Origin: an uncultured Nitrosopumilaceae archaeon
GTDB lineage: Archaea > Thermoproteota > Nitrososphaeria > Nitrososphaerales > Nitrosopumilaceae
Direction: 5' to 3'
DNA length: 62,355 nt
Assembly (NCBI GenBank): GCA_963825095.1
Contig: CAWGRV010000008.1
Span: forward strand, 1-62,355
Below, in pieces: positions 8,815 to 56,782 of this stretch (position 1 is the first letter of the stretch; the number at the start of each line of letters is the position of its first letter). A model generated the notes under the pieces. The model had not been told where the DNA came from. It saw only the letters and a program-made list of their open reading frames with translations, and ran no database searches. The position numbers and the translations under genes were made by a program.

Positions 8815-9555
8815 TTAATCTCTGAATGAATAATTCGACTTTGGGTATTCATAAATATGAGTAATCCATTTTTTAGAATCGAAATTAAAATCAGAAGGGT
8901 AAATGATGCTTCTTCCTTTTTTAATTAAAAAGTCAATGAATTCATGAATATTATTTATAAAATTTATTTTGTAGGAAATTTCATTGATTTTTTTGCCATC
9001 GGACCATTTTGATTTTATAATCGATTTGATTTGAATCCCGTAATCTGATAAGAGACTATTAAAGAAACCTAAAAATGATTTGACACTGATTATATTTCTT
9101 TTATTCAAACCGAATAATGATAAACAAAACTTCGGATTGGTAAACAGGTAAGATAATTTTTTGACCACTTCTATATTACTTTGAAATTGCTTTCTTGCTA
9201 TTCTTTTCGAGTCAGATATGTTATCAAATCCGAGCATATTTATGATTTCCCTAACTATTCTATTCTTCTCCTTTTTCTTTTGAATGTCATAATCTATTTT
9301 AGTACCGATTTTGTCGGAGCCTTCTAGATTTTTATCATCTATGAGTCCTAATAAATTGAACAAAACATCTGTTTTTTGATAAAAACAATCCAAGAAATGA
9401 AAATCTATCTTGTCTATTCCAAAATTATGTTTATACATATACTTTTCTATCTGAACTTTTTCACTTCTTGTTGCTCGATTATTCATTTGCTTATTAAGCA
9501 AGATTCCAAAATCTTCTTTGCTTATATCCGGGGCCTCTAAAATTTCTTTCTTCAT
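8815..9555 (-). CDS. hypothetical protein
   Basis: 246-aa ORF. The adjacent small minus-strand ORFs 9570..9770 and 9791..10015 may be fragments of the same or a neighbouring decayed gene. Confidence 0.4.
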   Translation of the reverse strand: MKKEILEAPDISKEDFGILLNKQMNNRATRSEKVQIEKYMYKHNFGIDKIDFHFLDCFYQKTDVLFNLLGLIDDKNLEGSDKIGTKIDYDIQKKKEKNRIVREIINMLGFDNISDSKRIARKQFQSNIEVVKKLSYLFTNPKFCLSLFGLNKRNIISVKSFLGFFNSLLSDYGIQIKSIIKSKWSDGKKINEISYKINFINNIHEFIDFLIKKGRSIIYPSDFNFDSKKWITHIYEYPKSNYSFRD

Positions 9556-10104
9556 GATTTCAGTTTTATTTATTTCTTCTCTTTTCTTGGTGTGTTTGCG
9601 AGGACCAATGGAATAATATGGCTAAAATTATGACCTTTCTTTTTCAGCAAATTAAGCAAATAAGGAATAAAGTAATTTGCATTCTTATTTACGTTTTCTT
9701 GTTCGTTATAAATAGTTATCATGTCAAATAATTCAATTTCTAATTTAAGAACCATTTTATTCTTCTCCATATTAAAAATCAGGTTTTCTGTTATAATGGA
9801 TGATTATTTAATTCCATAACATAATTCTTTGGTTTCTTAAAAGTATAAAAAGAGGGCAATTCTTTATATCTCAATCCATTCGTACAGAACCATAATATTT
9901 GGTTATCAGAAAATTTTCTGCACTCTGCACACATCTGTAATAGTGATCTGGCGGAACAAGAATTCGCAGATAAGATACAATATAATTTATCAAAATGAAG
10001 AACATCAAAATTCACTCCGGCTTCGATTGTTGGACGAATAAATCACCACTTGATATTCAGACCAAAATTTATTAACATCTTTAAGTTTTTGCTTTAAAGT
10101 ATCG

Positions 10105-12062
10105 TCACTTTTTGCTGTATGGAGAATTGCTTTGATCGTCCATTTCTTTCAATTTATCATAGTATTTATTTCCAATAGTTGAAGACAAAGTAACCAAAAC
10201 AAATTTTTTACCCAAATGAATGTCTTTAAAAAAATGAGCATCAAAATAATCTCGAGCACCAACAAAGATAAAGTTTTTAGAATCAGGTTTATACAAATTT
10301 TCAATGACTTTAACATTGCCAAAATCTTTAAGAAAACTATAAGCTCGATTACAAAAATCACCATCTAAAGCCAACACTTTATTCGAATTCTTGATGATAT
10401 TTTGCAATAATTCAAAAGTATTTCTCTTTTCACTCTTTGAGAGTTGGAGATGAAAAATGATTACATAAGAGATTCGATTTCATCTAATATTATTAAATCA
10501 TAACTTGGGATATCAATTTCTAAGTTATCATCTACTTCTAAAGCAGTCCAATATTTTAGGAAGAGATTCTATTTGACAAATCAGTTTATCTGAACCAAAA
10601 TTTTTATCTAAGATAATTATCAAAACCAAAAATAGAAAAATTATGAAATATATCAAGAGTAAAACTTTGGCGATGAGAAACCCATAAAACTCTTTTGGGC
10701 TTATAAGTGGATATAATTTTCTTCACCATCGTTGTTTTTCCTGTTCCGTAGCAACTCAATATTCCGAGATGATTTGGTGTCTTTTCCTTGATACCAATGA
10801 ACTATGTTATTTATGACTTTAAAATTATCACCATGATTATTGTTAATTGAATTACATCTTGTTTCTCTGATCAAATGCTTTCTTTCTATTTTAATAGTTT
10901 CAAATAATTCCTTGATCTAAATTTTTTGGTAATTTGTTATACTTTTCCGGATTATCCAATTGCGCCAAATATTTTAAAGTCCCCATTTTTAAATTTTTCT
11001 TTTGAAACTTCGCCATTTAATAATACATATCACTTGGATCATATTTATCACTCTTTTTACTCCATTCATCCCACATATCCAAAGCATCACAATTACAATT
11101 AAATAGAATCATTCCTACCTGTAACCAATCATGATAATTGTCAGCTCTTTCAGCAGATAAGCATATCTAACAAATATTTTTGAATTCATCAAGGGGAATC
11201 TCTTTATTGGTATTTTTAAATTGTTCCTTTACTTCTTTTACAATTCTGTTTCTTAGTTTTTTTACCGCTAATAATTTCATTTACTTCATCCACATGAATC
11301 AATTTACTATTCGGTTTTATATAAGTGACTAAACAATCATAATAAAAACTCTTTGGTATCGCCATTGTATTCGTAATTAATAGCATAATCAAATTCTAAT
11401 TTGTTTTGTTTTCCCATTTTAGAATTCCATAACATCCTAAAACAACCATCTTTATAAATGGAGTGATCAAAAATATGTTTATCGACTAATGGATGTTTGA
11501 TTTGTTGCATGAATTCTTTCAGGTGATAAATATTTTCAAAATGTATAAATGGATAGATGATATGAGCTGATAATTTTTTTTTAGGATTATCACTTCTTGA
11601 GAACAATAACCGTTGGGTTTTCAATACCATATTTCAATAATTCAGTATTGATTAATTTAATAATCGCGGAAACCGTAACAGTATATAAAGTTTCTCTATC
11701 TGCATTTTTAGGGATTTTATCATTCGGATAATCCATATCAGCATGCAAAACGACTTGATTATTTTTACGATATTGTTCATAAATATGTTGAGTTTTATTT
11801 TTGATAATAGTATAAATAGTATCATAGTCGGCTAATATATAATATCTTCGCGCCTGATTTAGGCAGTTACATCTTTAGAGAAAAATGGCAGGCTTAAATT
11901 GTTTTCTTTTGCATAATCTAATGCGGGATCTTTTTTGATAAAAACATAAATTCGCGTTTGCTCCGGATTTTTTTTATCTATAGTAATTATGTGAGGAGTT
12001 TTATCTCCTACATCAACTACAGAACAATCTACACTACGAGCAGAGCTAAAGTTTTTAATCAT
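10105..12062 (-). pseudogene. decayed P-loop helicase-like gene (Walker A GYCGTGKTT, motif II IILDEIE) with primase/origin-binding-protein-like N-terminal region, broken by many frameshifts and stops
   Basis: There is no ORF longer than 100 aa across about 2 kb. Manual minus-strand translation, hopping frames, gives consecutive pieces: MIKNFSSARSVDCSVVDVGDKTPHIITIDKK...; ...DYDTIYTIIKNKTQHIYEQYRKNNQVVLHADMDYPNDKIPKNADRETLYTV...; ...HSIYKDGCFRMLWNSKMGKQNKLEFD...; ...CYGTGKTTMVKKIISTYKPKRVLWVSHRQSF...; ...IILDEIESL...; ...NKVLALDGDFCNRAYSFLKDFG.... Together these are consistent with one helicase gene of roughly 650 aa or more. Confidence 0.45.
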
Positions 12063-12878
12063 TTTTGGGTATATATATATATATCCAGAAATAATTTTTT
12101 TGATAGTAAACGTACTGAAAAAATAAAAAACTATATATTTTTATTTGATCGAATAATAAATGTGCGTTTTGCTTAATTTCCTTTTCCATCAGTTGTATCT
12201 TTTTGTATATGAGAAATCAATATAACCCTAAATCCGCACACATATATCTCAAAAAAGTTAATATATAATGTTTAACTTATTTCTTCTGATACCATCCACA
12301 TTTTACTTTATCAAAATATTTAAACAATTTATCTTCCATTCTTTCAAATGTTTCTTTATTGATATCTTTAATAATATCCAGTCGATCTATTCCAATAAAT
12401 TCTGTCAAATCATTTATTTCTTTCTTTCCGATATTTTTCAATATTTCATTAATAAACTTTAGGGCCATTTTATATTTATCCGAAGATTTATCGACACTTG
12501 TTATTATTAATTTTTGACCTTTTTTGATTTTTTTATTCTTATTATCAGAATATATTCTAAAATTATTAGGATGGTCTTGTCATCTAATTCATCAATTTAT
12601 CTTTGATGGTAGAAATCATTTGTTCTTTCTGCTCCATCTTTAATATTATATTAGATAAATTTATTTGTCTTTAGATTGCTTTTTGATAAAAATTAACGTG
12701 TTCAACATGAGTCCTCTTATATTAGACATTGCGTGACTTAAGTACGTCTGAATGTCCCGAAAAAATGGAATTACATTTTCATCATGCTGAAAAAACAGAA
12801 TTCATATCGCCACCACATTTCTTTACCATACTATGAATCTAATCATATATTTCAAAATTATCATTGCGATAGATAAAC

Positions 12879-17447: not shown

Positions 17448-18953
17448 CAATGCTAGTAACTTAAGTAAATTTATTCATATTTTTTTTGATAATTTTAACA
17501 TTTTAATGGAAATGATTTCCTAAAATTTCATTTTTATAAATTTCAGAAAATTTCGCAAGAATTCTAAATTATTCATTTGGTCGGCTGTTGTACTTTCTTT
17601 CTGCAAAACATGAATACCTCCGGTAATCCGGCTGCCCATAAATTGATCATCTTATTACATTTTTATAAAAATGATAATGCATACCAATTTATGGGAAAAT
17701 AAAGATTATTTTTTTTCCACAGTGCAATACATGCGACCCTTACTACCCCATTTTGACCCCTTTGGTTTTTTCCTAATTCTCTTATGATGTCTGTTTTTTT
17801 GTATCAATGTAACGGTATCTTCTATTATTGATAATATTCTTAGGATTTTATTTATTCCCGTTTTGCGAGTATTGCCATAAAATAATGCATATAAGAGCTT
17901 CTTTACAAATTTCAGAGTATTCTTCCTGTTTATTTTATATTTATCGCAATTTATATTTTTCATAGCAATGTTTTCGAAAAAGCTATCAATAATAAAAATG
18001 AAATTATGTATAGCTATGTCCTGTTTAACTTTTCCAATTTCTTTTGATTCAATATCTTTCAAAGATAAATCATATTTAGCGTGTCTAAAATTTGTTTCGA
18101 TTTTCCATCGTTTCCAATATAAATCCATTAAAAAATTCATATCTTTATCTATCAATGTTGTTCCCAAAAAATAATCATTTCCATTAAGTTGGTATTTAAT
18201 TAGTTTCAACTTTATTAATGTTCCATCTATATTGATGTTTATTATTTTCTCTGAACAGTTACCATTTAGATGTTTTTTTACAATTGTCAGCGTTGAAACT
18301 AATCGAAATACAACATTTATGCCCTTTCCAATAAGTGTTCTAAATAATTCCTTACTAAAATAACCTCTATCCATTAATAAAACATCGCCAGGTCGAATAT
18401 ATTTTAATTGTCTTTTCAATATGAATCTTTCATCGGAAGAATCACTAATGGTATAATTGATGACCATTTCTTTATCGACATCATATAAACAACTTAACAA
18501 AGCGGTACAGTAATTTTGATTTTTGTCCAATTTAAATCCATTTTCACTAAGGGTAGCATTTAAGTTAATACCACTACCATCAACGGCAATATATCTTTTT
18601 TTATTATCTGCATATATAAAATCAATAAGTGATTGATTAAATATTTCAAAATGGGAATGATCAATATTAGATCGTTTATTAATAATGGCCGTTTTAGTTA
18701 CATTTAAAACATTCTTATATTTTAAAGACGAATTAACGATATCATAACTTAATTTCTCATTATTCTTACGGGAGAGAATATACACGATATCCTTAAAAAA
18801 AACCTTTCTCTTCCGTATCGAAGTGTAAAAATTCAAATCAGATAAAACTCGATTAATATAAATTTTAAAATTTTTAATGATTTTTATAGGGTCCATTAAA
18901 AATAATATATATAAAAAAATTAAAATTATAAAAAACTTAAGTTACCAGCATTG
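17448..18953 (-). mobile_element. IS4-family insertion sequence, copy 1 (1506 bp; 18-bp imperfect TIR CAATGCT[A/G]GTAACTTAAG)
   Basis: Left end caatgctagtaacttaag at 17448-17465; right end cttaagttaccagcattg at 18936-18953. The interior is about 99% identical to copy 2 at 40090..41595. No clean TSD here: the flanks cgccgagca and tgctgagcg are imperfect inverted GC-rich hairpin sequences. Confidence 0.8.
17706..18896 (-). CDS. IS4-family DDE transposase
   Basis: 396 aa. DDE residues lie in AVDGSG, LLMDRGY and KIETNF. LYWKRWKIETNFRHAK matches the IS4-family Y-(2)-R-(3)-E-(6)-K signature exactly. Confidence 0.85.
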   Translation of the reverse strand: MDPIKIIKNFKIYINRVLSDLNFYTSIRKRKVFFKDIVYILSRKNNEKLSYDIVNSSLKYKNVLNVTKTAIINKRSNIDHSHFEIFNQSLIDFIYADNKKRYIAVDGSGINLNATLSENGFKLDKNQNYCTALLSCLYDVDKEMVINYTISDSSDERFILKRQLKYIRPGDVLLMDRGYFSKELFRTLIGKGINVVFRLVSTLTIVKKHLNGNCSEKIININIDGTLIKLKLIKYQLNGNDYFLGTTLIDKDMNFLMDLYWKRWKIETNFRHAKYDLSLKDIESKEIGKVKQDIAIHNFIFIIDSFFENIAMKNINCDKYKINRKNTLKFVKKLLYALFYGNTRKTGINKILRILSIIEDTVTLIQKNRHHKRIRKKPKGSKWGSKGRMYCTVEKK

Positions 18954-19191
18954 TGCTGAGCGTAGGCTCAGTGAACGGAGTTCACTGGCTCCCCGAGCAA
19001 ACGAATGCAAAGTGAGCTTCAGCTCACCTTGCTGGCGCTCGATAATGCTGCGCATTCTCAAACTCCCAAAAAAGTTCGGGGAAGTTTGGCAAAAGCGAAG
19101 CTTTTGCTGAGCCGAAGGCTCAGTGAACTCCGTTCACTTGCTCGCAGAGCGAACGAATGCAAAGTGAGCTGAAGCTCACCTCGCTGGCGCT
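18954..19191. repeat. GC-rich palindromic repeat element (two partial tandem units) abutting the IS right end
   Basis: About 58% GC in a roughly 27% GC genome. Hairpins gctgagcgtaggctcagtgaacggagttcactg and gtgagcttcagctcac; a 44-bp direct repeat at 18997-19040 and 19149-19192. Related copies occur at 19757-19982, 35964-36156, 48021-48146 and 56620-56780. Confidence 0.7.
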
Positions 19192-19756
19192 CAATGCTGG
19201 TACCTTAAGGAAAAAGTATGTCAGTCTCCGAAAATATAATTGTTGTCTTCAACGACGAAAAGATCATCTCCGTCATATAAATCCGTTTCCTATCACACAT
19301 GAGTGCCACGCGATAGTACCATGCGATGGATGAATTGCATCAATTTGAATGATTCCACGCAAATAATTCCAACGCATGGTTCCTTCGCGTGAAATTCATA
19401 TTTTACTTTCTGTGACTTCCCAAAGCACTTCTGCCCTCGCCGCCATTCCTTCTTAATTTATTGTGAGGCCATTATTTGCAGTACTTTAAAGCCTCACATA
19501 AATCGCCCGCGCCAAAGGCGCATTAAGTATTTAATCCTTTTCCTATCACACATTAGTGCCGCGCGATAGTACCGTGCTTGAGATAAATTGCATAAATCCC
19601 AAGTGTTCTATGCAAAGAATTCCAATGCATGGTTCCTTCGCGCAAAATAAAAGAAAAGAACCGCTTAAAATAATGTTCATGTGTATCACTTTTAAAATGG
19701 AAAATTTCAAAAATTATTGGGCGTTTATCATACTTTTCCTTAAGGTACCAGCATTG
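19192..19756. mobile_element. MITE-like non-autonomous element (565 bp) with 19-bp perfect TIRs CAATGCTGGTACCTTAAGG and 10-bp TSD CGCTGGCGCT
   Basis: The left TIR at 19192-19210 is the exact reverse complement of 19738-19756. The flanks 19182-19191 and 19757-19766 are both cgctggcgct. The TIR differs from the IS TIR only at AAC versus ACC. The interior has no long ORF, a roughly 110-bp direct repeat (19279-19390 versus 19540-19650) and a hairpin tgtgaggc...gcctcaca. It is inserted inside a GC-rich repeat unit; the uninterrupted homologous unit is at 19021-19060. Confidence 0.65.
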
Positions 19757-19982
19757 CGCTGGCGCTCGATAATGCTGCGCATTCTCAAACTCCCAAAAAA
19801 GTTCGGGGAAGTTTGGCAAAAGCTTTGCTTTTGCTGAGCCTTCGGCTCTGTGAACTTCGTTCACTTGCTCGTAGAGCAAACGAATGCAATTCGTCGAACG
19901 GAGCGAGATAATACGCAGTATTATTATGAGTCGAGCATTAGCGAGGCGACCTTCGGTTCGCTGAAAAATTGACTCTCAGGAG
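19757..19982. repeat. GC-rich palindromic repeat element
   Basis: gcgctggcgctcgataatgctgcgcattctcaaactcccaaaaaagttcggggaagtttggcaaaagc... is nearly identical to 19030-19095. It continues with the ...gagcaaacgaatgcaa... and gagtcgagc...gagataatacgcagtattatt modules shared with the 48021 and 56620 copies. Confidence 0.65.
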
Positions 19983-20019
19983 CAATTTATTATTTCGCTC
20001 GTTAATTTTCGCAAAATAA

Positions 20020-20027
20020 AAAATTGA
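20020..20027 (+). promoter_or_regulatory. AAAATTGA early-promoter-like octamer upstream of the P450 gene
   Basis: Exact octamer 53 bp upstream of the ATG at 20080. Confidence 0.4.
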
Positions 20028-20079
20028 ATTCTAAAATTTAAAAATATACTATTTAATTATATAATAAAAATTCGAGACT

Positions 20080-21723
20080 ATGGGCTTTTATACAGTACTG
20101 TTAGTTACGATACCGGTCATCTTTTTAGTTTCACTTTTATTCAGAAAACGGCGATCCACGCCTTACGAAAAGTATCCTGGTCTCCATGGACGTTCAGGAA
20201 AAATGCTTTCCATGTATTACGTTATGACGAAGGGAGTTTGGAACTTTGTTATGTATCTTTACGAGAAATACAAATCATCCGATTACAGACCTATTCATTT
20301 TACTACGATGATGGGAAACCCGGCCCTATTTATCTACAATCCAGATCACATAATACAAGCGCTAACTGATATTGATCATTTTGAATGGACCAGTGAACGC
20401 GAAACGGTCGAACACGTTGGACGACTTCTCCCCGATGCAATTATAACGACATGGGATTACAAAGAGTGGCATCCAAAGAGAGCCCGGATAGTTTATTACT
20501 TGAGTGGTCGTGCGCTTGAAAAGGCAAAAGAATTCTCGATCCGGTGTGCACGCGAAAATTTTCTTCCCGAATTGAAGAAAATTGCGGACGGCAGGGCAGT
20601 GGATTTAGGACCTATCATTTTCAGGTACGCGACTTTGTCTACGTTGATGGAAATGTTCGATCTAAAACGCGAAGATATTCCGGATCAGACTTTGGATCAC
20701 ATCACAAAACTTTTCTCTTACATTTGGAAACGTATATTTAACCCCCTGATTCTCTTAAGAATGAAAATGGATAATATGATGCCTTTTCTTGGTTTGGAAA
20801 AAGAATACAAAGAAGATGTGCGAGCATTTTATGATTTATTAGCACCTCACCAAGAGCGTCTGAGATATGCGGATACATTGGGCGGATCAACGGTTCGAGG
20901 TCATACTAAATTTAATCCGAACTTTAAGAGCGCAGCAGTTTTTGCAAAATCGATCTTGAATATAGAAGAAGCCGAACTTGAACAACAGATGAAAGATCAT
21001 TATGCTGGATTAGAAAAAGAACGAGATGATCTTCACCATGTCTCATTCTATCTAGCCGGTAAACTGAAACTACCCGAAGATCAATTAGGGAAATTTGCAG
21101 GTCATCTGAGCGACGGTAATCCCATTGATTTACAAAAAGTGGTCAACGAAACATTGACCCTCATGTTAGGAGGCGCAGAAACGAATGCTATATTCTTCCA
21201 ATGGATTCTTCTACACATGTCTGCCACTCCTGCCACTCAACAACGCGTTTATGAAGAATTAAAAGACAAAGAACTGGTACCGATGCCCGAACGAAAGGGG
21301 CTTATCAATAATATTGTTCAAGAAGTATTCAGATTATCAGGTCCAACTTATTACAGTCAACGGGGTTGCCATACAAAAACAATACTTCAACCGGGAAATT
21401 TCGAAGTTCCAGCTGGCACAATCATGACCTTTTCACAATTACTACAAAGTACACTGGAAGAGAATTTTCCAGATGCACTAAAATTTGATCCGGATAGATG
21501 GGCACAAGAAATGAAGCCCAAAGCTGGTACTTTCCTACCATTTGTGAAGGGAAGAAGAACATGTCCTGGAGCGGAACAAGCCCAGTTCGAGGCGGCCTTA
21601 TTCATAACAGTTCTTTTCCAGAATTTTAGAATAGAACGCGCTGATGATAAAGAAATAGGAAAGCTTTGTGGGCTTACAGTCATGCCGGATCCACCCATTA
21701 TGTTAAAAATAAAGGCCGTGTAA
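20080..21723 (+). CDS. cytochrome P450 monooxygenase with N-terminal membrane anchor
   Basis: 547 aa. TM segment LLVTIPVIFLVSLLF, EVFR (ExxR), FDPDRW (PERF-like), and heme-binding loop FLPFVKGRRTCPGAEQA (FxxGxRxCxG). The gene is noticeably GC-richer than its surroundings. Confidence 0.85.
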   Translation: MGFYTVLLVTIPVIFLVSLLFRKRRSTPYEKYPGLHGRSGKMLSMYYVMTKGVWNFVMYLYEKYKSSDYRPIHFTTMMGNPALFIYNPDHIIQALTDIDHFEWTSERETVEHVGRLLPDAIITTWDYKEWHPKRARIVYYLSGRALEKAKEFSIRCARENFLPELKKIADGRAVDLGPIIFRYATLSTLMEMFDLKREDIPDQTLDHITKLFSYIWKRIFNPLILLRMKMDNMMPFLGLEKEYKEDVRAFYDLLAPHQERLRYADTLGGSTVRGHTKFNPNFKSAAVFAKSILNIEEAELEQQMKDHYAGLEKERDDLHHVSFYLAGKLKLPEDQLGKFAGHLSDGNPIDLQKVVNETLTLMLGGAETNAIFFQWILLHMSATPATQQRVYEELKDKELVPMPERKGLINNIVQEVFRLSGPTYYSQRGCHTKTILQPGNFEVPAGTIMTFSQLLQSTLEENFPDALKFDPDRWAQEMKPKAGTFLPFVKGRRTCPGAEQAQFEAALFITVLFQNFRIERADDKEIGKLCGLTVMPDPPIMLKIKAV

Positions 21724-35963: not shown

Positions 35964-36156
35964 ATCGCTCGGCAAAAGCTTTGCTTTCGCCCGCGTAAAG
36001 CGAGGTAAGCAGTTGCTGCTTGACGAACTTTGTTCGCTTATCAAGATGTTAGTTTCTTTACCAAGCAGCACCGTCGGTGATCTCGCTCTGTTCGGCAGCT
36101 ACGCTGCATTTCAGGATTTTATTTGACCAGCATTGTGCTCGGCGAACATAATTCGC
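35964..36156. repeat. GC-rich palindromic repeat element with solo IS-end-like motif
   Basis: cgctcggcaaaagctttgctttcgcc (compare gctcagcaaaagctttgcttttgc elsewhere), ...accagcattgtgctcggcgaacataattcgccg at 36126-36156. The motif accagcattg|tgctSRgcg is the same junction seen at the IS copy 1 right end (18944-18962). Confidence 0.5.
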
Positions 36157-38050: not shown

Positions 38051-40089
38051 ATGAAATATTTCGCTTATATAAATATAATCAAAATGGATGAATCAGAGGA
38101 ATCCCAGAGAAATGATTTCAAAAATGATCAAATCGAAAATGAAATAGAAATTACGCCGTTGCAAATATACCGTAAATATGAGGTGAATAAAAAAGAAAAG
38201 GGATCCAAAAAACACAAACATCATAAAATGTGCAAAAGTGAGAAAAAATCCGGAGACTCGAGAAAAAAAAAATATTTAATTGGGCCAACTGGTCCTAGCG
38301 GCCCAACAGGCCACATTGGTCCAACCGGTCCAACTGGTAAAAACGGTCTGGGAATTACTGGCGCGACTGGATCGATCGGACCAACCGGTACAGAGTTAAC
38401 CTTGCCGAATATAGCATCCCTCAGGGCAACTGCTCCTAATTCGAGTTTGGAATCACTTGTTGTCGAAGGATATTACATTCCCGGGGATGGAGGTGGTGGT
38501 ACATTTTTTTATGATTCTACTGATGTAATAACCCCGGATAACGGGGGAACAGTAATCGTCGCATCTGGCTCATCTGACCCAACTGCAAGATGGAAAAGAA
38601 TTTATGTTCCGAGAAACATATCAGCAAAATGGTTTGGTGCAAAAGGAGACGGAGCCACAGATGACACCATCGCTTTGACAAATTGTTTAGATCTGGCTCA
38701 GAACCTGAATGGAGCCTCCATATATCTGCCTTCTGGAATTTATGTTATTTCGGAGACATTGAATGTAACAGTTTCGAATGTAAGCATTAAAGGTGATGGG
38801 CATCCCGTATGGACAGACGTCAATCCAGATCAAGACTATACTTGTATCAGTTGGAATGGGGCGAGCGGAGCAGCGATGCTTTCAGTATCGGCAATAGAAG
38901 GGCCGAGTAATGATGTTATAAGCTGCGTCGATGTAATCGGAGTGGGATTCTTGGGCAATGGAACAGCTGCCTACGGAATTGCAATTGGCTCGCAATGGTA
39001 TGGTAAATATGATGTTTATATAGAAAATTGTACGATAGCCCTCTTTTATACTTATTGCCTCGCCCAATTAGCCAAACATTGTGATGTACAAATGTTGGAT
39101 GTTTTATTAAATGGTAAACAGATTAGTGGAACAGGTGCGGGATTATTGTTGACCGGGAATGCTGAAAGTTTGCCGGCAGGCTCGGACACTTCGCTTTGTA
39201 TTTTCAGGCATGTGAGTGTGTTAATCGGCGAAAATAATACCGGAGTGATTTTAGGTAACACCGATCACAATTTATTTTTAATTCTAGCGACGCCACCAAA
39301 GACAGCCACAACCGGTCCAAGTGTTGTCTTTCAAGCGGCTGCAACGGGCCAAGAACCGGCGCGTTACAATCTCATAATTGAATTGGCTAGCGGAAAGGGA
39401 CAAGTAGTAGCTCAGGGAACGGAAACACAAGTCAATCCCTCTAATGGAAATATTATTCAATATATCAACTTCGTAGGAGCCGCATTGCCCTCTATTGGCA
39501 CCGGGGCCGACTTAGCTTGGGGTTCAGATAATAATATTTTCGGTCCGCGCGGATTTTTCGGAGTAGCGATTGCGGATCAATTCGGCACTGCGAGAACGGC
39601 TTACGATGCATTAACTACTGAATCTTTGAGAGTGGCTAATGGAATGAGTAACCATATTATCTTATCGAATCCGCCAAATACCGTAAATTGGAGTGTGAAT
39701 ATAGAAAATTCCAATGGTGAAATGAGAATGTACAGTACAACTAACCCAACTGAACCATTAGTCGTGAGTAATCCAATGGCCGCGGCATCACCAGTCGTTT
39801 TCGCGTCATCCGCTGATCTTTCTCATGAAATATCAGCCGCCGGTACTGAAACATTACGCCTAAATAATTCATCTAGTAATCATTTATTGTTGACAGCTAA
39901 TACGCACGATGCGGATCAATGGGGAATGAATATCGACGGATCAGGAAATTTAAATTTCACTCATCCGGCCGGGACGGGTACTGGAAGTTTTACCGGGGAT
40001 ATGACATTTAACAATCAATTAACAGTTACTGATAATTTCAATCCGCAGAGTAAAACCATATTTGGTGCCACTGCAAGTCCAGCACCGCA
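38051..40089 (+). pseudogene. collagen-like/beta-helix fibre protein, 5' part, disrupted by IS4-family insertion
   Basis: Same architecture as 36221..37984: K/H-rich leader, GPTG repeats, LRATAPNSSLESLVVEGYYIPGDGGGGTFFY...AKWFGAKGDGATDDTIAL. The native frame runs into the IS at 40090. The annotated ORF end (40165, ...HNASNLSKFIHIFFDNFNILMEMIS) is IS-encoded read-through. Confidence 0.75.
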
Positions 40090-41595
40090 CAATGCTAGTA
40101 ACTTAAGTAAATTTATTCATATTTTTTTTGATAATTTTAACATTTTAATGGAAATGATTTCCTAAAATTTCATTTTTATAAATTTCAGAAAATTTCGCAC
40201 GAATTCTAAATTATTCATTTGGTCGGCTGTTGTACTTTCTTTCTGCAAAACATGAATACCTCCGGTAATCCGGCTGCCCATAAATTGATCATCTTATTAC
40301 ATTTTTATAAAAATGATAATGCATACCAATTTATGGGAAAATAAAGATTATTTTTTTTCCACAGTGCAATACATGCGACCCTTACTACCCCATTTTGACC
40401 CCTTTGGTTTTTTCCTAATTCTCTTATGATGTCTGTTTTTTTGTATCAATGTAACGGTATCTTCTATTATTGATAATATTCTTAGGATTTTATTTATTCC
40501 CGTTTTGCGAGTATTGCCATAAAATAATGCATATAAGAGCTTCTTTACAAATTTCAGACTATTCTTCCTGTTTATTTTATATTTATCGCAATTTATATTT
40601 TTCATAGCAATGTTTTCGAAAAAGCTATCAATAATAAAAATGAAATTATGTATAGCTATATCCTGTTTAACTTTTCCAATTTCTTTTGATTCAATATCTT
40701 TCAAAGATAAATCATATTTAGCGTGTCTAAAATTTGTTTCGATTTTCCATCGTTTCCAATATAAATCCATTAAAAAATTCATATCTTTATCTATCAATGT
40801 TGTTCCCAAAAAATAATCATTTCCATTAAGTTGGTATTTAATTAGTTTCAACTTTATTAATGTTCCATCTATATTAATGTTTATTATTTTCTCCGAACAG
40901 TTACCATTTAGATGTTTTTTTACAATTGTTAGCGTTGAAACTAATCGAAATACAACATTTATGCCCTTTCCAATAAGTGTTCTAAATAATTCCTTACTAA
41001 AATAACCTCTATCCATTAATAAAACATCGCCAGGTCGAATATATTTTAATTGTCTTTTCAATATGAATCTTTCATCGGAAGAATCACTAATGGTATAATT
41101 GATGACCATTTCTTTATCAACATCATATAAACAACTTAACAAAGCGGTACAGTAATTTTGATTTTTGTCCAATTTAAATCCATTTTCACTAAGGGTCGCA
41201 TTTAAGTTAATACCACTACCATCAACGGCAATATATCTTTTTTTATTATCTGCATATATAAAATCAAGAAGTGATTGATTAAATATTTCAAAATGGGAAT
41301 GATCAATATTAGATCGTTTATTAATAATGGCCGTTTTAGTTACATTCAAAACATTCTTATATTTTAAAGACGAATTAACGATATCATAACTTAATTTCTC
41401 ATTATTCTTACGGGAGAGAATATACACGATATCCTTAAAAGAAACCTTTCTCTTCCGTATCGAAGTGTAAAAATTCAAATCAGATAAAACTCGATTAATA
41501 TAAATTTTAAAATTTTTAATGATTTTTATAGGGTCCATTAAAAATAATATATATAAAAAAATTAAAATTATAAAAAACTTAAGTTACCAGCATTG
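40090..41595 (-). mobile_element. IS4-family insertion sequence, copy 2, with 9-bp target-site duplication AGCACCGCA
   Basis: TIRs at 40090-40107 and 41578-41595. The direct repeat agcaccgca lies at 40081-40089 and 41596-41604. It is inserted inside the collagen/beta-helix gene. Confidence 0.85.
40348..41538 (-). CDS. IS4-family DDE transposase (copy 2)
   Basis: 396 aa, differing from copy 1 at 3 residues (F33S, I-to-L, T-to-S); same YREK signature. Confidence 0.85.
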   Translation of the reverse strand: MDPIKIIKNFKIYINRVLSDLNFYTSIRKRKVSFKDIVYILSRKNNEKLSYDIVNSSLKYKNVLNVTKTAIINKRSNIDHSHFEIFNQSLLDFIYADNKKRYIAVDGSGINLNATLSENGFKLDKNQNYCTALLSCLYDVDKEMVINYTISDSSDERFILKRQLKYIRPGDVLLMDRGYFSKELFRTLIGKGINVVFRLVSTLTIVKKHLNGNCSEKIININIDGTLIKLKLIKYQLNGNDYFLGTTLIDKDMNFLMDLYWKRWKIETNFRHAKYDLSLKDIESKEIGKVKQDIAIHNFIFIIDSFFENIAMKNINCDKYKINRKNSLKFVKKLLYALFYGNTRKTGINKILRILSIIEDTVTLIQKNRHHKRIRKKPKGSKWGSKGRMYCTVEKK

Positions 41596-41893
41596 AGCAC
41601 CGCAAGCTTTTGGAAATATAACAGCAAATGGCGTAATTGGAGTTTTGACTTTCAACGGTCTAAATCAGGCAGCCGGGTCAACAACATCAGCCACTGTCAC
41701 AAATTCATTTGCTGATGCAAATAGTTTTATCTTTTTGACAATACAGAGTTACACAGGAACATATTTTATAAATGGTTATCCTAAGTTTGAAATAGGCGGT
41801 AAGAGTGCGGGCAGCTTTACACTTATCTTAAACAATACTGGAACAACAGCATTAAGCGGCACAGTTGAAGTCGCTTATCAATTATTGAATTAA
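41596..41893 (+). pseudogene. 3' part of the IS-disrupted collagen/beta-helix gene
   Basis: Reading in the 38051 frame, across one copy of the TSD, gives ...SPAP-QAFGNITANGVIGVLTFNGLNQAAGSTTSATV...AYQLLN* with no frameshift. The track ORF 41645..41893 begins at an in-frame TTG. Confidence 0.7.
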
Positions 41894-47967: not shown

Positions 47968-48020
47968 TACTATAGTAGTAAATAAGATTTTTATTCAATT
48001 TGTGGATGTGAAATTTCAAT

Positions 48021-48146
48021 AATATTGCGTATTATCTCGCTTCGCTCGACTCATTACATTCGTTTTCTCGGAGAGCAAGTGAACAGAGTTCACTGAGCCT
48101 ACGGCTCAGCAAAAGCTTTGCTTTTGCGCAATGCTTAGCATTGCCG
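48021..48146. repeat. GC-rich palindromic repeat element (reverse orientation) between the FG-GAP paralogs
   Basis: Reverse complement of the 19822-19930 and 56700-56780 modules (gagtcgagcgaagcgagataatacgcaatatt; ctcagtgaactctgttcacttgctc; gctcagcaaaagctttgcttttgc). It ends with the mini-palindrome caatgcttagcattg at 48120-48134. Confidence 0.65.
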
Positions 48147-56547: not shown

Positions 56548-56619
56548 TTTTAGAAATCAGCTATTGTGAATGAACAATTGTGAATGAAATTATTTTAGAC
56601 AAAAGGAATTTCAATATTT

Positions 56620-56780
56620 CAGTGAGCTTCAGCTCACCTCGCGTATGCTCGACTCACGATGTTCGTTTGCTCAGGAAGCCAGTGAATGTTGTTCACTGAG
56701 CGATAGCGAAACGCACGAAGTGTGTGCCGAGTAAACGAATGTAATGAGTCGAGCGGAGCGAGATAATGCGCAGCATTATT
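56620..56780. repeat. GC-rich palindromic repeat element
   Basis: cagtgagcttcagctcacctcgc; cagtgaatgttgttcactgagcg; gtaaacgaatgtaatgagtcgagcggagcgagataatgcgcagcattatt. The same modules occur at 18954-19190, 19757-19982 and 48021-48146. Confidence 0.65.
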
Positions 56781-56782
56781 GA

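What the first reader, a model, noticed from the sequence alone, without database searches (positions are those of the whole stretch)
19182..19766. MITE-like 565-bp element with 19-bp perfect TIRs cognate to the IS4-family TIRs and a 10-bp TSD
caatgctggtaccttaagg (19192-19210) and its exact reverse complement (19738-19756) bracket a non-coding 565-bp segment. Both flanks are cgctggcgct, and the corresponding uninterrupted target (caccttgctggcgctcgataatgctg) is present 150 bp away at 19025-19050. The TIR differs from the autonomous IS TIR only by AAC versus ACC, which suggests the IS4-family transposase could mobilise it. The interior carries a roughly 110-bp direct repeat and a stem-loop but no ORF. 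This would be an autonomous/non-autonomous transposon pair in a viral genome.
Basis: seen in the sequence. Interest (0 to 1): 0.75.

Follow-up and report, generated by a model that had tools for sequence, protein, structure and literature searches.

The report
Small non-coding transposon in giant virus
A 565-base non-coding mobile element carrying the same kind of end sequences as a bacterial-type (IS4-family) jumping gene in the same giant-virus contig has inserted cleanly into an intergenic repeat; this is a new example of a known kind of element, not a new kind.

Summary
Window 19192-19756 is a 565-bp element with perfect 19-bp terminal inverted repeats (28/29 when extended) and identical 10-bp flanks, CGCTGGCGCT. 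Removing the element plus one flank copy restores the ~152-bp register of a GC-rich tandem repeat and reproduces the neighbouring unit, so the duplication was made by insertion.

The interior has no ORF over 44 aa and no transposase remnant. It holds two 116-nt direct repeats, each an imperfect hairpin.

The contig carries two 1506-bp IS copies that differ at 11 positions. Each encodes an intact 396-aa DDE transposase with the IS4 YREK signature. One copy splits a gene and has a 9-bp duplication. A related autonomous IS elsewhere has an end that matches 18/19, so the true partner may be another lineage.

Gene content and AAAATTGA promoter motifs point to a Mimiviridae-like giant virus.

No second copy was found in the window, IMG/VR, JGI metagenomes or GTDB genomes. 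The rest of this assembly could not be searched, so family status and trans-mobilisation are not shown. Bacterial MITEs with the same ends and 10-11-bp duplications do exist.

Verdict: a real, single-copy, MITE-like non-autonomous IS4-family element; a new member of a known kind.

The parts
19192..19756 (.). 565-bp non-autonomous MITE-like element
   Evidence: It is bounded by perfect 19-bp TIRs and a 10-bp TSD. It has no ORF over 44 aa and no transposase remnant (blastx E>=2). GC is 38.8% against 25.6% for the IS. There is no Rfam match.
19192..19220 (+). Left terminal inverted repeat (19 nt perfect, 29 columns with one indel)
19729..19756 (-). Right terminal inverted repeat
19182..19191 (.). 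Left copy of the target-site duplication CGCTGGCGCT
19757..19766 (.). Right copy of the target-site duplication CGCTGGCGCT
19280..19395 (+). Internal direct repeat 1, containing an imperfect hairpin (19299-19330/19368-19399)
19533..19648 (+). Internal direct repeat 2 (81% identical to repeat 1), also predicted to form a hairpin
19030..19039 (.). Paralogous uninterrupted target (TGCTGGCGCT) in tandem-repeat unit 1; it serves as the 'empty site' reference
18954..19990 (.). GC-rich (~50% GC) hairpin-cluster repeat, about 2.6 tandem units of ~152 bp. The element interrupts it. Related copies lie at 48018-48127, 56611-56782 and 35967-35991.
17448..18953 (-). IS copy A (1506 bp), 238 bp from the element. 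The transposase ORF is 17706-18896 (-), 396 aa. No target-site duplication is recognisable.
40090..41595 (-). IS copy B (1506 bp; 11 differences from copy A). The transposase ORF is 40348-41538 (-). The 9-bp TSD AGCACCGCA lies at 40081-40089 and 41596-41604. The copy interrupts a collagen/pectate-lyase-like gene that starts at 38051.

Best explanation
The 565-bp segment is a non-autonomous, MITE-like transposable element of an IS4-family lineage. It inserted by DDE-transposase cut-and-paste integration into unit 2 of a GC-rich intergenic hairpin repeat of a Mimiviridae-like giant-virus genome. Staggered target cleavage and repair duplicated 10 bp.

The element supplies only the ~19-29-bp transposase-binding ends. 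The enzyme must come in trans from an autonomous family member. That could be the resident 1506-bp IS (two intact, 99.3%-identical copies in this contig) or a closer relative with ACC..GG-type ends.

Shown: the anatomy, the precise insertion, the lack of coding capacity, the shared end-sequence family, the IS4-type transposase, and recent IS activity in this genome. Inferred: which transposase moved it, that it moved as a short element, and that it can still move.
For: - **Ends and flanks.** The TIRs are perfect over 19 nt and the flanks are identical over 10 nt.
- **Precise insertion.** Excising the element plus one flank copy restores the 152-bp repeat register and matches unit 1.
- **Shared ends.** The element's ends match the IS right end at 17/19 and the left end at 16/19. 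Six sites are found against 0.01 expected.
- **Transposase family.** PF01609 at E 1.6e-15. The best NCBIfam hit is IS4 family transposase NF033592 at E 6e-28. D105, D175, E266 and Y259/R262/E266/K273 are invariant across 15 homologues. The best annotated relatives are IS4-like ISPa1635 transposases.
- **Recent IS activity.** The two copies differ at 11 of 1506 positions and both ORFs are intact. Copy B has a 9-bp TSD, and removing it restores a 775-aa ORF.
- **TSD length fits the family.** A relative in L039 has a 10-bp TSD. Bacterial MITEs with the same ends have 10- and 11-bp TSDs (L029 91 bp, L032 158 bp). Published IS4-family duplications are about 10 bp (PMC2266710).
- **No coding remnant.** The interior has no transposase similarity and no ORF over 44 aa.
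- **Viral target.** The target repeat is dispersed in this contig, so the insertion happened in the viral genome.
- **Viral context.** F-box/ankyrin, BTB, RCC1, kinase and collagen genes. AAAATTGA is enriched (37 against 21.6 +/- 4.5) and sits 35-75 nt upstream of many ORFs. The same locus in a Logan contig (sequencing run ERR12036782) lies next to a D5-like primase-helicase gene.
Against: - Only one copy is known. There is none elsewhere in the 62-kb window, in IMG/VR or in JGI metagenome contigs, where the single hit (L020) is a chance match inside a ciliate kinase gene. None was recognised in GTDB genomes: the three ACC-type hits (L026, L033, L038) have no partner inverted repeat within the DNA fetched and no similarity to the interior, and were not examined further.
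- No orthologous empty site was seen in another strain.
- The TIR differs from the resident IS ends at conserved position 12 and at position 19. A different lineage (L057) matches better, at 18/19.
- Similarity to the resident IS stops after 18-19 nt.
- The transposase scores below NCBIfam's IS4 equivalog cut-off (97.9 against 115 bits).
- Trans-mobilisation was not tested.
Confidence: 0.85

Rival explanations
1. It is the decayed remnant of a once-autonomous IS of a sister lineage that inserted here at full length. It then lost its transposase in situ through internal deletion or replacement. On this reading it never transposed as a short element.
For: Only a single copy is known. ACC..GG-type ends belong to an autonomous relative (L057). 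A decayed 1823-bp family member with only transposase fragments exists in a giant-virus MAG (L003).
Against: There is no trace of transposase coding sequence (blastx E>=2). No interior similarity exists to any family IS retrieved. The TIRs (19/19) and TSD (10/10) are perfect, which argues for a young insertion, yet complete erasure of 1.2 kb of coding sequence would require age or a clean replacement. The two ends share a 28/29 subterminal match with each other, which is typical of MITEs built from one IS end.
Confidence: 0.08
2. The element and its flanking GC-rich repeat were acquired together from a bacterium by horizontal transfer. The transposition event would then have happened in a bacterial genome, not in the virus.
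For: The same end sequence occurs on IS ends and MITEs in bacterial MAGs (L021, L022, L035, L029, L032). The region is much more GC-rich than the rest of the contig.
Against: The target repeat family is dispersed in other intergenic regions of this contig (48018-48127, 56611-56782, 35967-35991). The resident IS is active in viral genes. Neither the repeat-containing region (18900-20100) nor the element has a match in the phage collection, and the element's end and interior patterns gave no real match in IMG/VR, JGI metagenome contigs or GTDB genomes. The repeat itself was not searched for in those three collections.
Confidence: 0.04
3. It is a chance or structural inverted repeat belonging to the hairpin-rich GC repeat, and is not a mobile element.
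For: The surrounding DNA is full of short palindromes.
Against: A 19-nt perfect inverted repeat that also matches the ends of two ISs is not expected by chance (0.01 expected against 6 found). The identical 10-bp flanks and the exact restoration of the repeat register are the signature of insertion. The element's composition and sequence are unrelated to the repeat.
Confidence: 0.01

Closest known systems
IS4-family insertion sequences (IS4/IS231-type subgroups) and their non-autonomous derivatives in bacteria (IS231-derived MIC231 cassettes and MITEs)
   Same: The transposase is a DDE enzyme with the Y-x2-R-x3-E-x6-K signature. The IS is 1506 bp long with ends starting CA. The ends fit both published consensus strings, '-AATR--------WTW' (IS4 subgroup) and, apart from position 3, 'CAT-------AA--TAA' (IS231 subgroup). 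Target duplications are about 9-10 bp (PMC2266710 Table 1). Non-autonomous elements that share only the ends with the IS are the MIC/MITE pattern. Trans-mobilisation of MIC231 by IS231A transposase is from my own knowledge of Chen et al. 1999, a paper cited in PMC2266710.
   Different: The transposase is only about 24% identical to annotated bacterial IS4-family transposases and scores below the NCBIfam equivalog cut-off. The host is a giant virus of eukaryotes. The element carries no passenger gene, so it is a MITE and not a MIC. Position 12 of its TIR is C where the IS231 consensus has A.
Bacterial MITEs with the same ends, found here: L029 6533-6623 (Elusimicrobiaceae MAG) and L032 3772-3929 (Syntrophaceae MAG)
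   Same: Their ends are CAATGC(T/C)(G/A)GT(A/C)ACTTAAG-type, their TSDs are 10-11 bp, and they are non-coding.
   Different: They are much shorter (91 and 158 bp) with unrelated interiors, and they sit in GC-rich bacterial genomes.
ISvEsV1_1, the IS4-subgroup element of Ectocarpus siliculosus virus 1
   Same: It is an IS4-family IS resident in two copies in a large eukaryotic dsDNA virus (PMC2266710). It was recovered here as L049/L050 on a 335,593-bp IMG/VR contig that I take to be EsV-1 from its length (own knowledge).
   Different: Transposase identity is only 25%. The virus belongs to a different family. No cognate non-autonomous element was reported in the text read.
MITEs of giant and large DNA viruses: Submariner (Tc1/mariner) and hAT/CMC MITEs of pandoraviruses; IS200/IS605_NA of ascoviruses
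   Same: These are short, non-coding elements bounded by TIRs and TSDs inside viral genomes, with partners recognised by end similarity alone (PMC4495683; PMC6004678).
   Different: They belong to eukaryotic superfamilies (TA or 8-bp TSD) or to IS200/IS605. They are multi-copy (up to 90). Their partners are mostly in the cellular host. That survey found none in Mimiviridae and none of the IS4 family.

Membership tests
MITE (miniature inverted-repeat transposable element) | Short length (below about 600-800 bp) | tested here: met
   565 bp
MITE (miniature inverted-repeat transposable element) | Terminal inverted repeats | tested here: met
   19/19 perfect, and 28/29 when extended
MITE (miniature inverted-repeat transposable element) | Target-site duplication generated by insertion | tested here: met
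   The 10-bp CGCTGGCGCT is present on both sides. Excision restores the repeat register and matches the paralogous unit.
MITE (miniature inverted-repeat transposable element) | No coding capacity | tested here: met
   The longest ORF is 44 aa. blastx against 25 family proteins gives E>=2.
MITE (miniature inverted-repeat transposable element) | Multiple homogeneous copies in the genome | tested here: inconclusive
   There is one copy in the 62-kb contig and no other recognised copy in IMG/VR, JGI metagenomes or GTDB genomes. The other contigs of this assembly could not be retrieved.
MITE (miniature inverted-repeat transposable element) | Ends similar to those of an autonomous element that can supply transposase | tested here: met
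   17/19 and 16/19 to the resident IS ends, and 18/19 to an autonomous relative in L057. Actual mobilisation was not tested.
IS4 family (for the partner IS and the end type) | DDE transposase of the DDE_Tnp_1 type with the Y-(2)-R-(3)-E-(6)-K signature | tested here: met
   PF01609 at E 1.6e-15. YWKRWKIETNFRHAK is present. D105, D175, E266, Y259, R262 and K273 are invariant in 15 homologues.
IS4 family (for the partner IS and the end type) | Score above NCBIfam's curated IS4 equivalog cut-off | tested here: not met
   NF033592 is the best hit (E 6e-28), but 97.9 bits is below the 115-bit cut-off. This is a divergent member at family level.
IS4 family (for the partner IS and the end type) | Target duplication of about 10 bp (against 4-5 bp in IS701/ISH3) and ends starting CA | tested here: met
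   9 bp for IS copy B, 10 bp for the element, and 10 bp in L039. The criterion is from PMC2266710.
MIC231-type mobile insertion cassette | IS231-type ends bracketing passenger gene(s) | tested here: not met
   There is no ORF over 44 aa. The ends fit the IS231 consensus only partly, with C at position 12.
Submariner / Tc1-mariner viral MITEs | TA target-site duplication and Tc1/mariner-type ends | tested here: not met
   The TSD is 10 bp of GC-rich sequence. The definition is from PMC4495683.

The most novel reading that the evidence does not exclude
A prokaryote-type IS4-family transposition system is currently active inside a Mimiviridae-like giant virus and works entirely in trans in the cytoplasmic virus factory. 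It moves both full ISs and cargo-bearing non-autonomous elements, preferentially into GC-rich hairpin (REP/BIME-like) intergenic repeats. The 565-bp element spreads paired ~100-nt hairpin modules that act as transcript-end or regulatory signals for viral genes.
Probability: 0.15. Interest if true: 0.6.

Novelty: new member of a known kind. Interest (0 to 1): 0.4.

Why it matters
Transposable elements are rarely documented in viruses. The published survey of MITEs in 5170 viral genomes found them only in pandoraviruses, ascoviruses and polydnaviruses, mostly with partners in the cellular host (PMC6004678). Here the candidate partner is in the same genome: a bacterial-type IS4-family IS that is intact, present in two copies and splits a gene. 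It sits in a Mimiviridae-like genome, 238 bp from a non-autonomous element that carries cognate ends.

That gives a compact, testable case of autonomous and non-autonomous transposon dynamics within a giant virus, and of bacterial-type mobile DNA working in a eukaryotic virus. It extends known categories (IS4-derived MITEs, ISs in giant viruses, MITEs in giant viruses) and does not create a new one.

Tried and rejected
- **Structured RNA.** Rfam with permissive thresholds on 18700-20200 gave no match, and there are no tRNAs in the window. The interior is not a known RNA family.
- **Phage collection.** blastn of the region found nothing.
- **Deletion derivative of the resident IS.** Rejected. 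blastn similarity stops at the 18-19-nt ends, and blastx to 25 family proteins is at noise level.
- **Other copies.** I searched the exact 19-mer in JGI metagenome contigs. The only hit, L020, lies in a ciliate-type contig with C4A4 telomere repeats and a kinase gene, so it is a chance match. I also searched a degenerate end pattern in IMG/VR and GTDB genomes, an internal-repeat motif and the subterminal pattern in IMG/VR. No other copy was recognised. The three ACC-type GTDB hits (L026, L033, L038) lack a partner repeat within the DNA fetched and any interior similarity, and were not examined further.
- **Sister contig.** Attempts to retrieve the 75,747-bp contig that carries the 99%- and 82%-identical transposases failed.
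- **Other samples.** Logan contigs from ERR12036782 carry the neighbouring ankyrin and P450 genes but came without DNA, so the empty-versus-filled test in another sample was not possible. Looking up the 108-aa ORF that overlaps the element found nothing.
- **Orthologous loci.** The search for related loci with the P450 gene or with the single transposase in IMG/VR gave nothing.
- **Sigma-70 promoter and terminator scan.** Counts were not above shuffled expectation and the scan does not apply to a giant virus.
- **Whole-element fold.** z = -9.2, but this mainly reflects the TIRs and the internal palindromes. I do not take it as evidence of an RNA function.

Full report

Yes. The 19-mer CAATGCTGGTACCTTAAGG is at 19192-19210 on the + strand, and its exact reverse complement is at 19738-19756. 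Allowing up to 3 mismatches, the window holds six sites: these two and the four ends of two insertion sequences. Shuffles of the window give 0.01 expected. With one indel the inverted repeat extends to 29 columns (19192-19220 / 19729-19756, 96.6%).

Both flanks, 19182-19191 and 19757-19766, read CGCTGGCGCT. The interior has a 116-nt direct repeat (19280-19395 versus 19533-19648, 81%). Each copy contains a long imperfect palindrome. The longest ATG ORF is 44 aa.

**2. Is the 10-bp repeat a true target-site duplication?**

The element sits in a GC-rich (about 50% GC) array of ~152-bp tandem units that begins immediately after IS copy A (18954 onward). I deleted 19192-19766, which is the element plus one flank copy, and laid the remainder out in 152-nt rows. 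The units then fall into register. The restored unit 2 reads ...GCTCACCTCGCTGGCGCTCGATAATGCTGCGC..., and unit 1 reads ...GCTCACCTTGCTGGCGCTCGATAATGCTGCGC....

The duplication is therefore exactly the short stretch next to the TIRs. Unit 1 (19030-19039) serves as a paralogous empty site.

**3. The candidate autonomous partner.**

- **Two copies.** Two 1506-bp elements lie at 17448-18953 and 40090-41595. They differ at 11 positions. Each has an intact 396-aa ORF on the minus strand.
- **Transposase family.** The protein matches PF01609 DDE_Tnp_1 (E 1.6e-15). Its best NCBIfam model is 'IS4 family transposase' NF033592 (E 6e-28). At 97.9 bits it falls below the 115-bit equivalog cut-off, so it is a divergent member.
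- **Catalytic residues.** In an alignment of 15 homologues (30-82% identity), D105, D175 and E266 are invariant, as is the IS4 signature Y259-x2-R262-x3-E266-x6-K273.
- **Annotated relatives.** The nearest annotated relatives are IS4-like ISPa1635 transposases at about 24% identity.
- **Recent activity.** Copy B is flanked by a 9-bp duplication, AGCACCGCA. Removing the copy extends the truncated 704-aa collagen/pectate-lyase-like ORF to 775 aa. The IS has therefore transposed recently within this genome.
- **Copy A.** It has no recognisable duplication: CGCCGAGCA on the left against TGCTGAGCG on the right. A later rearrangement is possible.

**4. How the element's ends relate to the IS ends.**

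| End | Sequence (5'-3', reading inward) |
|---|---|
| IS left end | CAATGCTAGTAACTTAAGT |
| IS right end | CAATGCTGGTAACTTAAGT |
| 565-bp element, both ends | CAATGCTGGTACCTTAAGG |

Identity is 16/19 to the left end and 17/19 to the right end. Similarity ends after these 18-19 nt. The rest of the element matches neither the IS nor any family protein. Its GC content is 38.8%, against 25.6% for the IS.

The same end type is widespread:

- A decayed 1823-bp element, plus at least seven copies at contig ends, occur in the giant-virus MAG GVMAG-M-3300005286-3 (about 22% GC).
- An IS with a 10-bp TSD (GTCTATGCAT) sits in a 44-kb contig of ORFan and ankyrin genes (L039).
- An IS with CAATGGTGGTACC ends is in L043.
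- Ends at three contig termini occur in a 42%-GC 'proteobacterium' MAG (L021, L022, L035).
- Two bacterial MITEs of 91 and 158 bp have 10- and 11-bp TSDs (L029, L032).

In L057, a partial IS that still encodes the transposase C-terminus ends in CAATGCTGGGACCTTAAGG. That is 18/19 identical to the element's TIR and shares its ACC..GG signature. ACC-type ends therefore belong to autonomous members of the family. The element's parent or partner may be a lineage other than the resident IS. One candidate is the 82%-identical transposase P0002 on a sister contig, which I could not retrieve.

**5. Context: is this a virus?**

- The window is an entire 62,355-bp NCBI/ENA contig.
- Its genes include F-box/ankyrin, BTB, RCC1, protein kinase, collagen/beta-helix, P450, Rieske/KshA and sulfatase.
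- The octamer AAAATTGA is the Mimiviridae early-promoter motif (own knowledge: Suhre et al. 2005). It occurs 37 times against 21.6 +/- 4.5 expected. It sits 35-75 nt upstream of many ORF starts in the correct orientation.
- A Logan contig (sequencing run ERR12036782) that carries the identical ankyrin protein also carries a D5-like primase-helicase gene.

The 'viral genome' claim is supported. The target repeat family recurs in other intergenic regions of the contig, so the insertion happened in the viral genome.

**6. Mechanism (inference from the family).**

IS4-family DDE transposases such as Tn5 and Tn10 bind terminal sequences of about 19 bp, pair the ends, excise the element through hairpin intermediates, and integrate with a staggered cut of about 9-10 bp. 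Repair of that cut gives the duplication. The 565-bp element provides only the ends, so it needs transposase in trans.

The perfect TIRs and TSD suggest a young insertion. The 81%-identical internal repeats are older than the insertion.

What the interior does is unknown. Possibilities include hairpin transcript-end signals of the kind used by mimiviruses, but nothing here tests that.

**7. Comparison with what is known, and novelty.**

- IS4-family elements generate duplications of about 10 bp, and one (ISvEsV1_1) is known in a phycodnavirus (PMC2266710). That element is only 25% identical here.
- The window IS ends fit the published IS4-subgroup end consensus and most of the IS231 one.
- Non-autonomous IS231 derivatives (MIC231) are classical in the literature.
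- Viral MITEs are known from pandoraviruses, ascoviruses and polydnaviruses, but not from Mimiviridae and not from the IS4 family in the survey I read (PMC4495683, PMC6004678).
- Literature searches found no report of an IS4-type MITE in a giant virus.

This is a new member of a known kind.

**8. Limits.**

Only one copy is known. No orthologous empty site or polymorphism could be examined. Neither the rest of the assembly nor the raw reads were accessible. Trans-mobilisation is untested.

Noticed in passing
window 18954-19990; also 48018-48127, 56611-56782, 35967-35991: A GC-rich (~50% GC) mosaic of short hairpin modules forms a ~152-bp tandem array and dispersed intergenic copies in a 34%-GC genome. 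Between copies the stems are kept but the loops are flipped (GAGCC-GAAG-GCTC vs GAGCC-TTCG-GCTC; GTGAAC-GGA-GTTCAC vs GTGAAC-TCC-GTTCAC; GTGAGC-TTCA-GCTCAC vs -TGAA-). This recalls bacterial REP/BIME elements. Both IS copy A and the 565-bp element sit in it.
   Followed up: partly
window 8815-12708 (minus strand): The D5-like primase-helicase region is broken into at least 9 short ORFs in shifting frames, and so is the small gene next to it. A Logan contig from ERR12036782 with the identical neighbouring ankyrin protein has an intact 1078-aa PriCT_2/Herpes_ori_bp gene and a 151-aa gene there. This is either local indel errors in this assembly or a real pseudogene.
   Followed up: partly
window 17448-18953: IS copy A lacks a target-site duplication: left flank CGCCGAGCA against right flank TGCTGAGCG, 6/9. 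Its right flank is the first base of the GC-rich repeat. This suggests an IS-mediated rearrangement or later change of the flank.
   Followed up: partly
window 40081-41604: IS copy B interrupts a collagen/pectate-lyase-like (fibre-type) gene. Precise removal of the IS and one 9-bp TSD copy restores a 775-aa ORF starting at 38051.
   Followed up: yes
window-wide, e.g. 20020, 25800, 31182, 33161, 49639, 52406 (+); 6329, 30532, 54736 (-): AAAATTGA is enriched (37 against 21.6 expected) and positioned 35-75 nt upstream of ORF starts. This is the Mimiviridae-type early promoter signature.
   Followed up: partly
L057 1-440 and 440-1873 (JGI 3300069939, 17.6% GC): Two different ISs of the same family lie back to back in a (TA)n tract. 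The partial one has an ACC..GG-type end that is 18/19 identical to the window element's TIR.
   Followed up: partly
L002, L003, L004, L007, L012, L013, L016 (IMG/VR GVMAG-M-3300005286-3): A related IS-like element (ends CAATGCTGGTAACTTAAGG) lies at many contig ends of a 22%-GC giant-virus MAG. The only complete copy (L003 85-1907, 1823 bp) has just fragments of the transposase. The 10 nt next to the ends average about 60% GC, which hints at a preference for GC-rich targets.
   Followed up: partly
L029 6533-6623; L032 3772-3929: Bacterial MAGs (Elusimicrobiaceae, Syntrophaceae) carry 91-bp and 158-bp MITEs with the same end sequence and 10-11-bp target duplications.
   Followed up: partly
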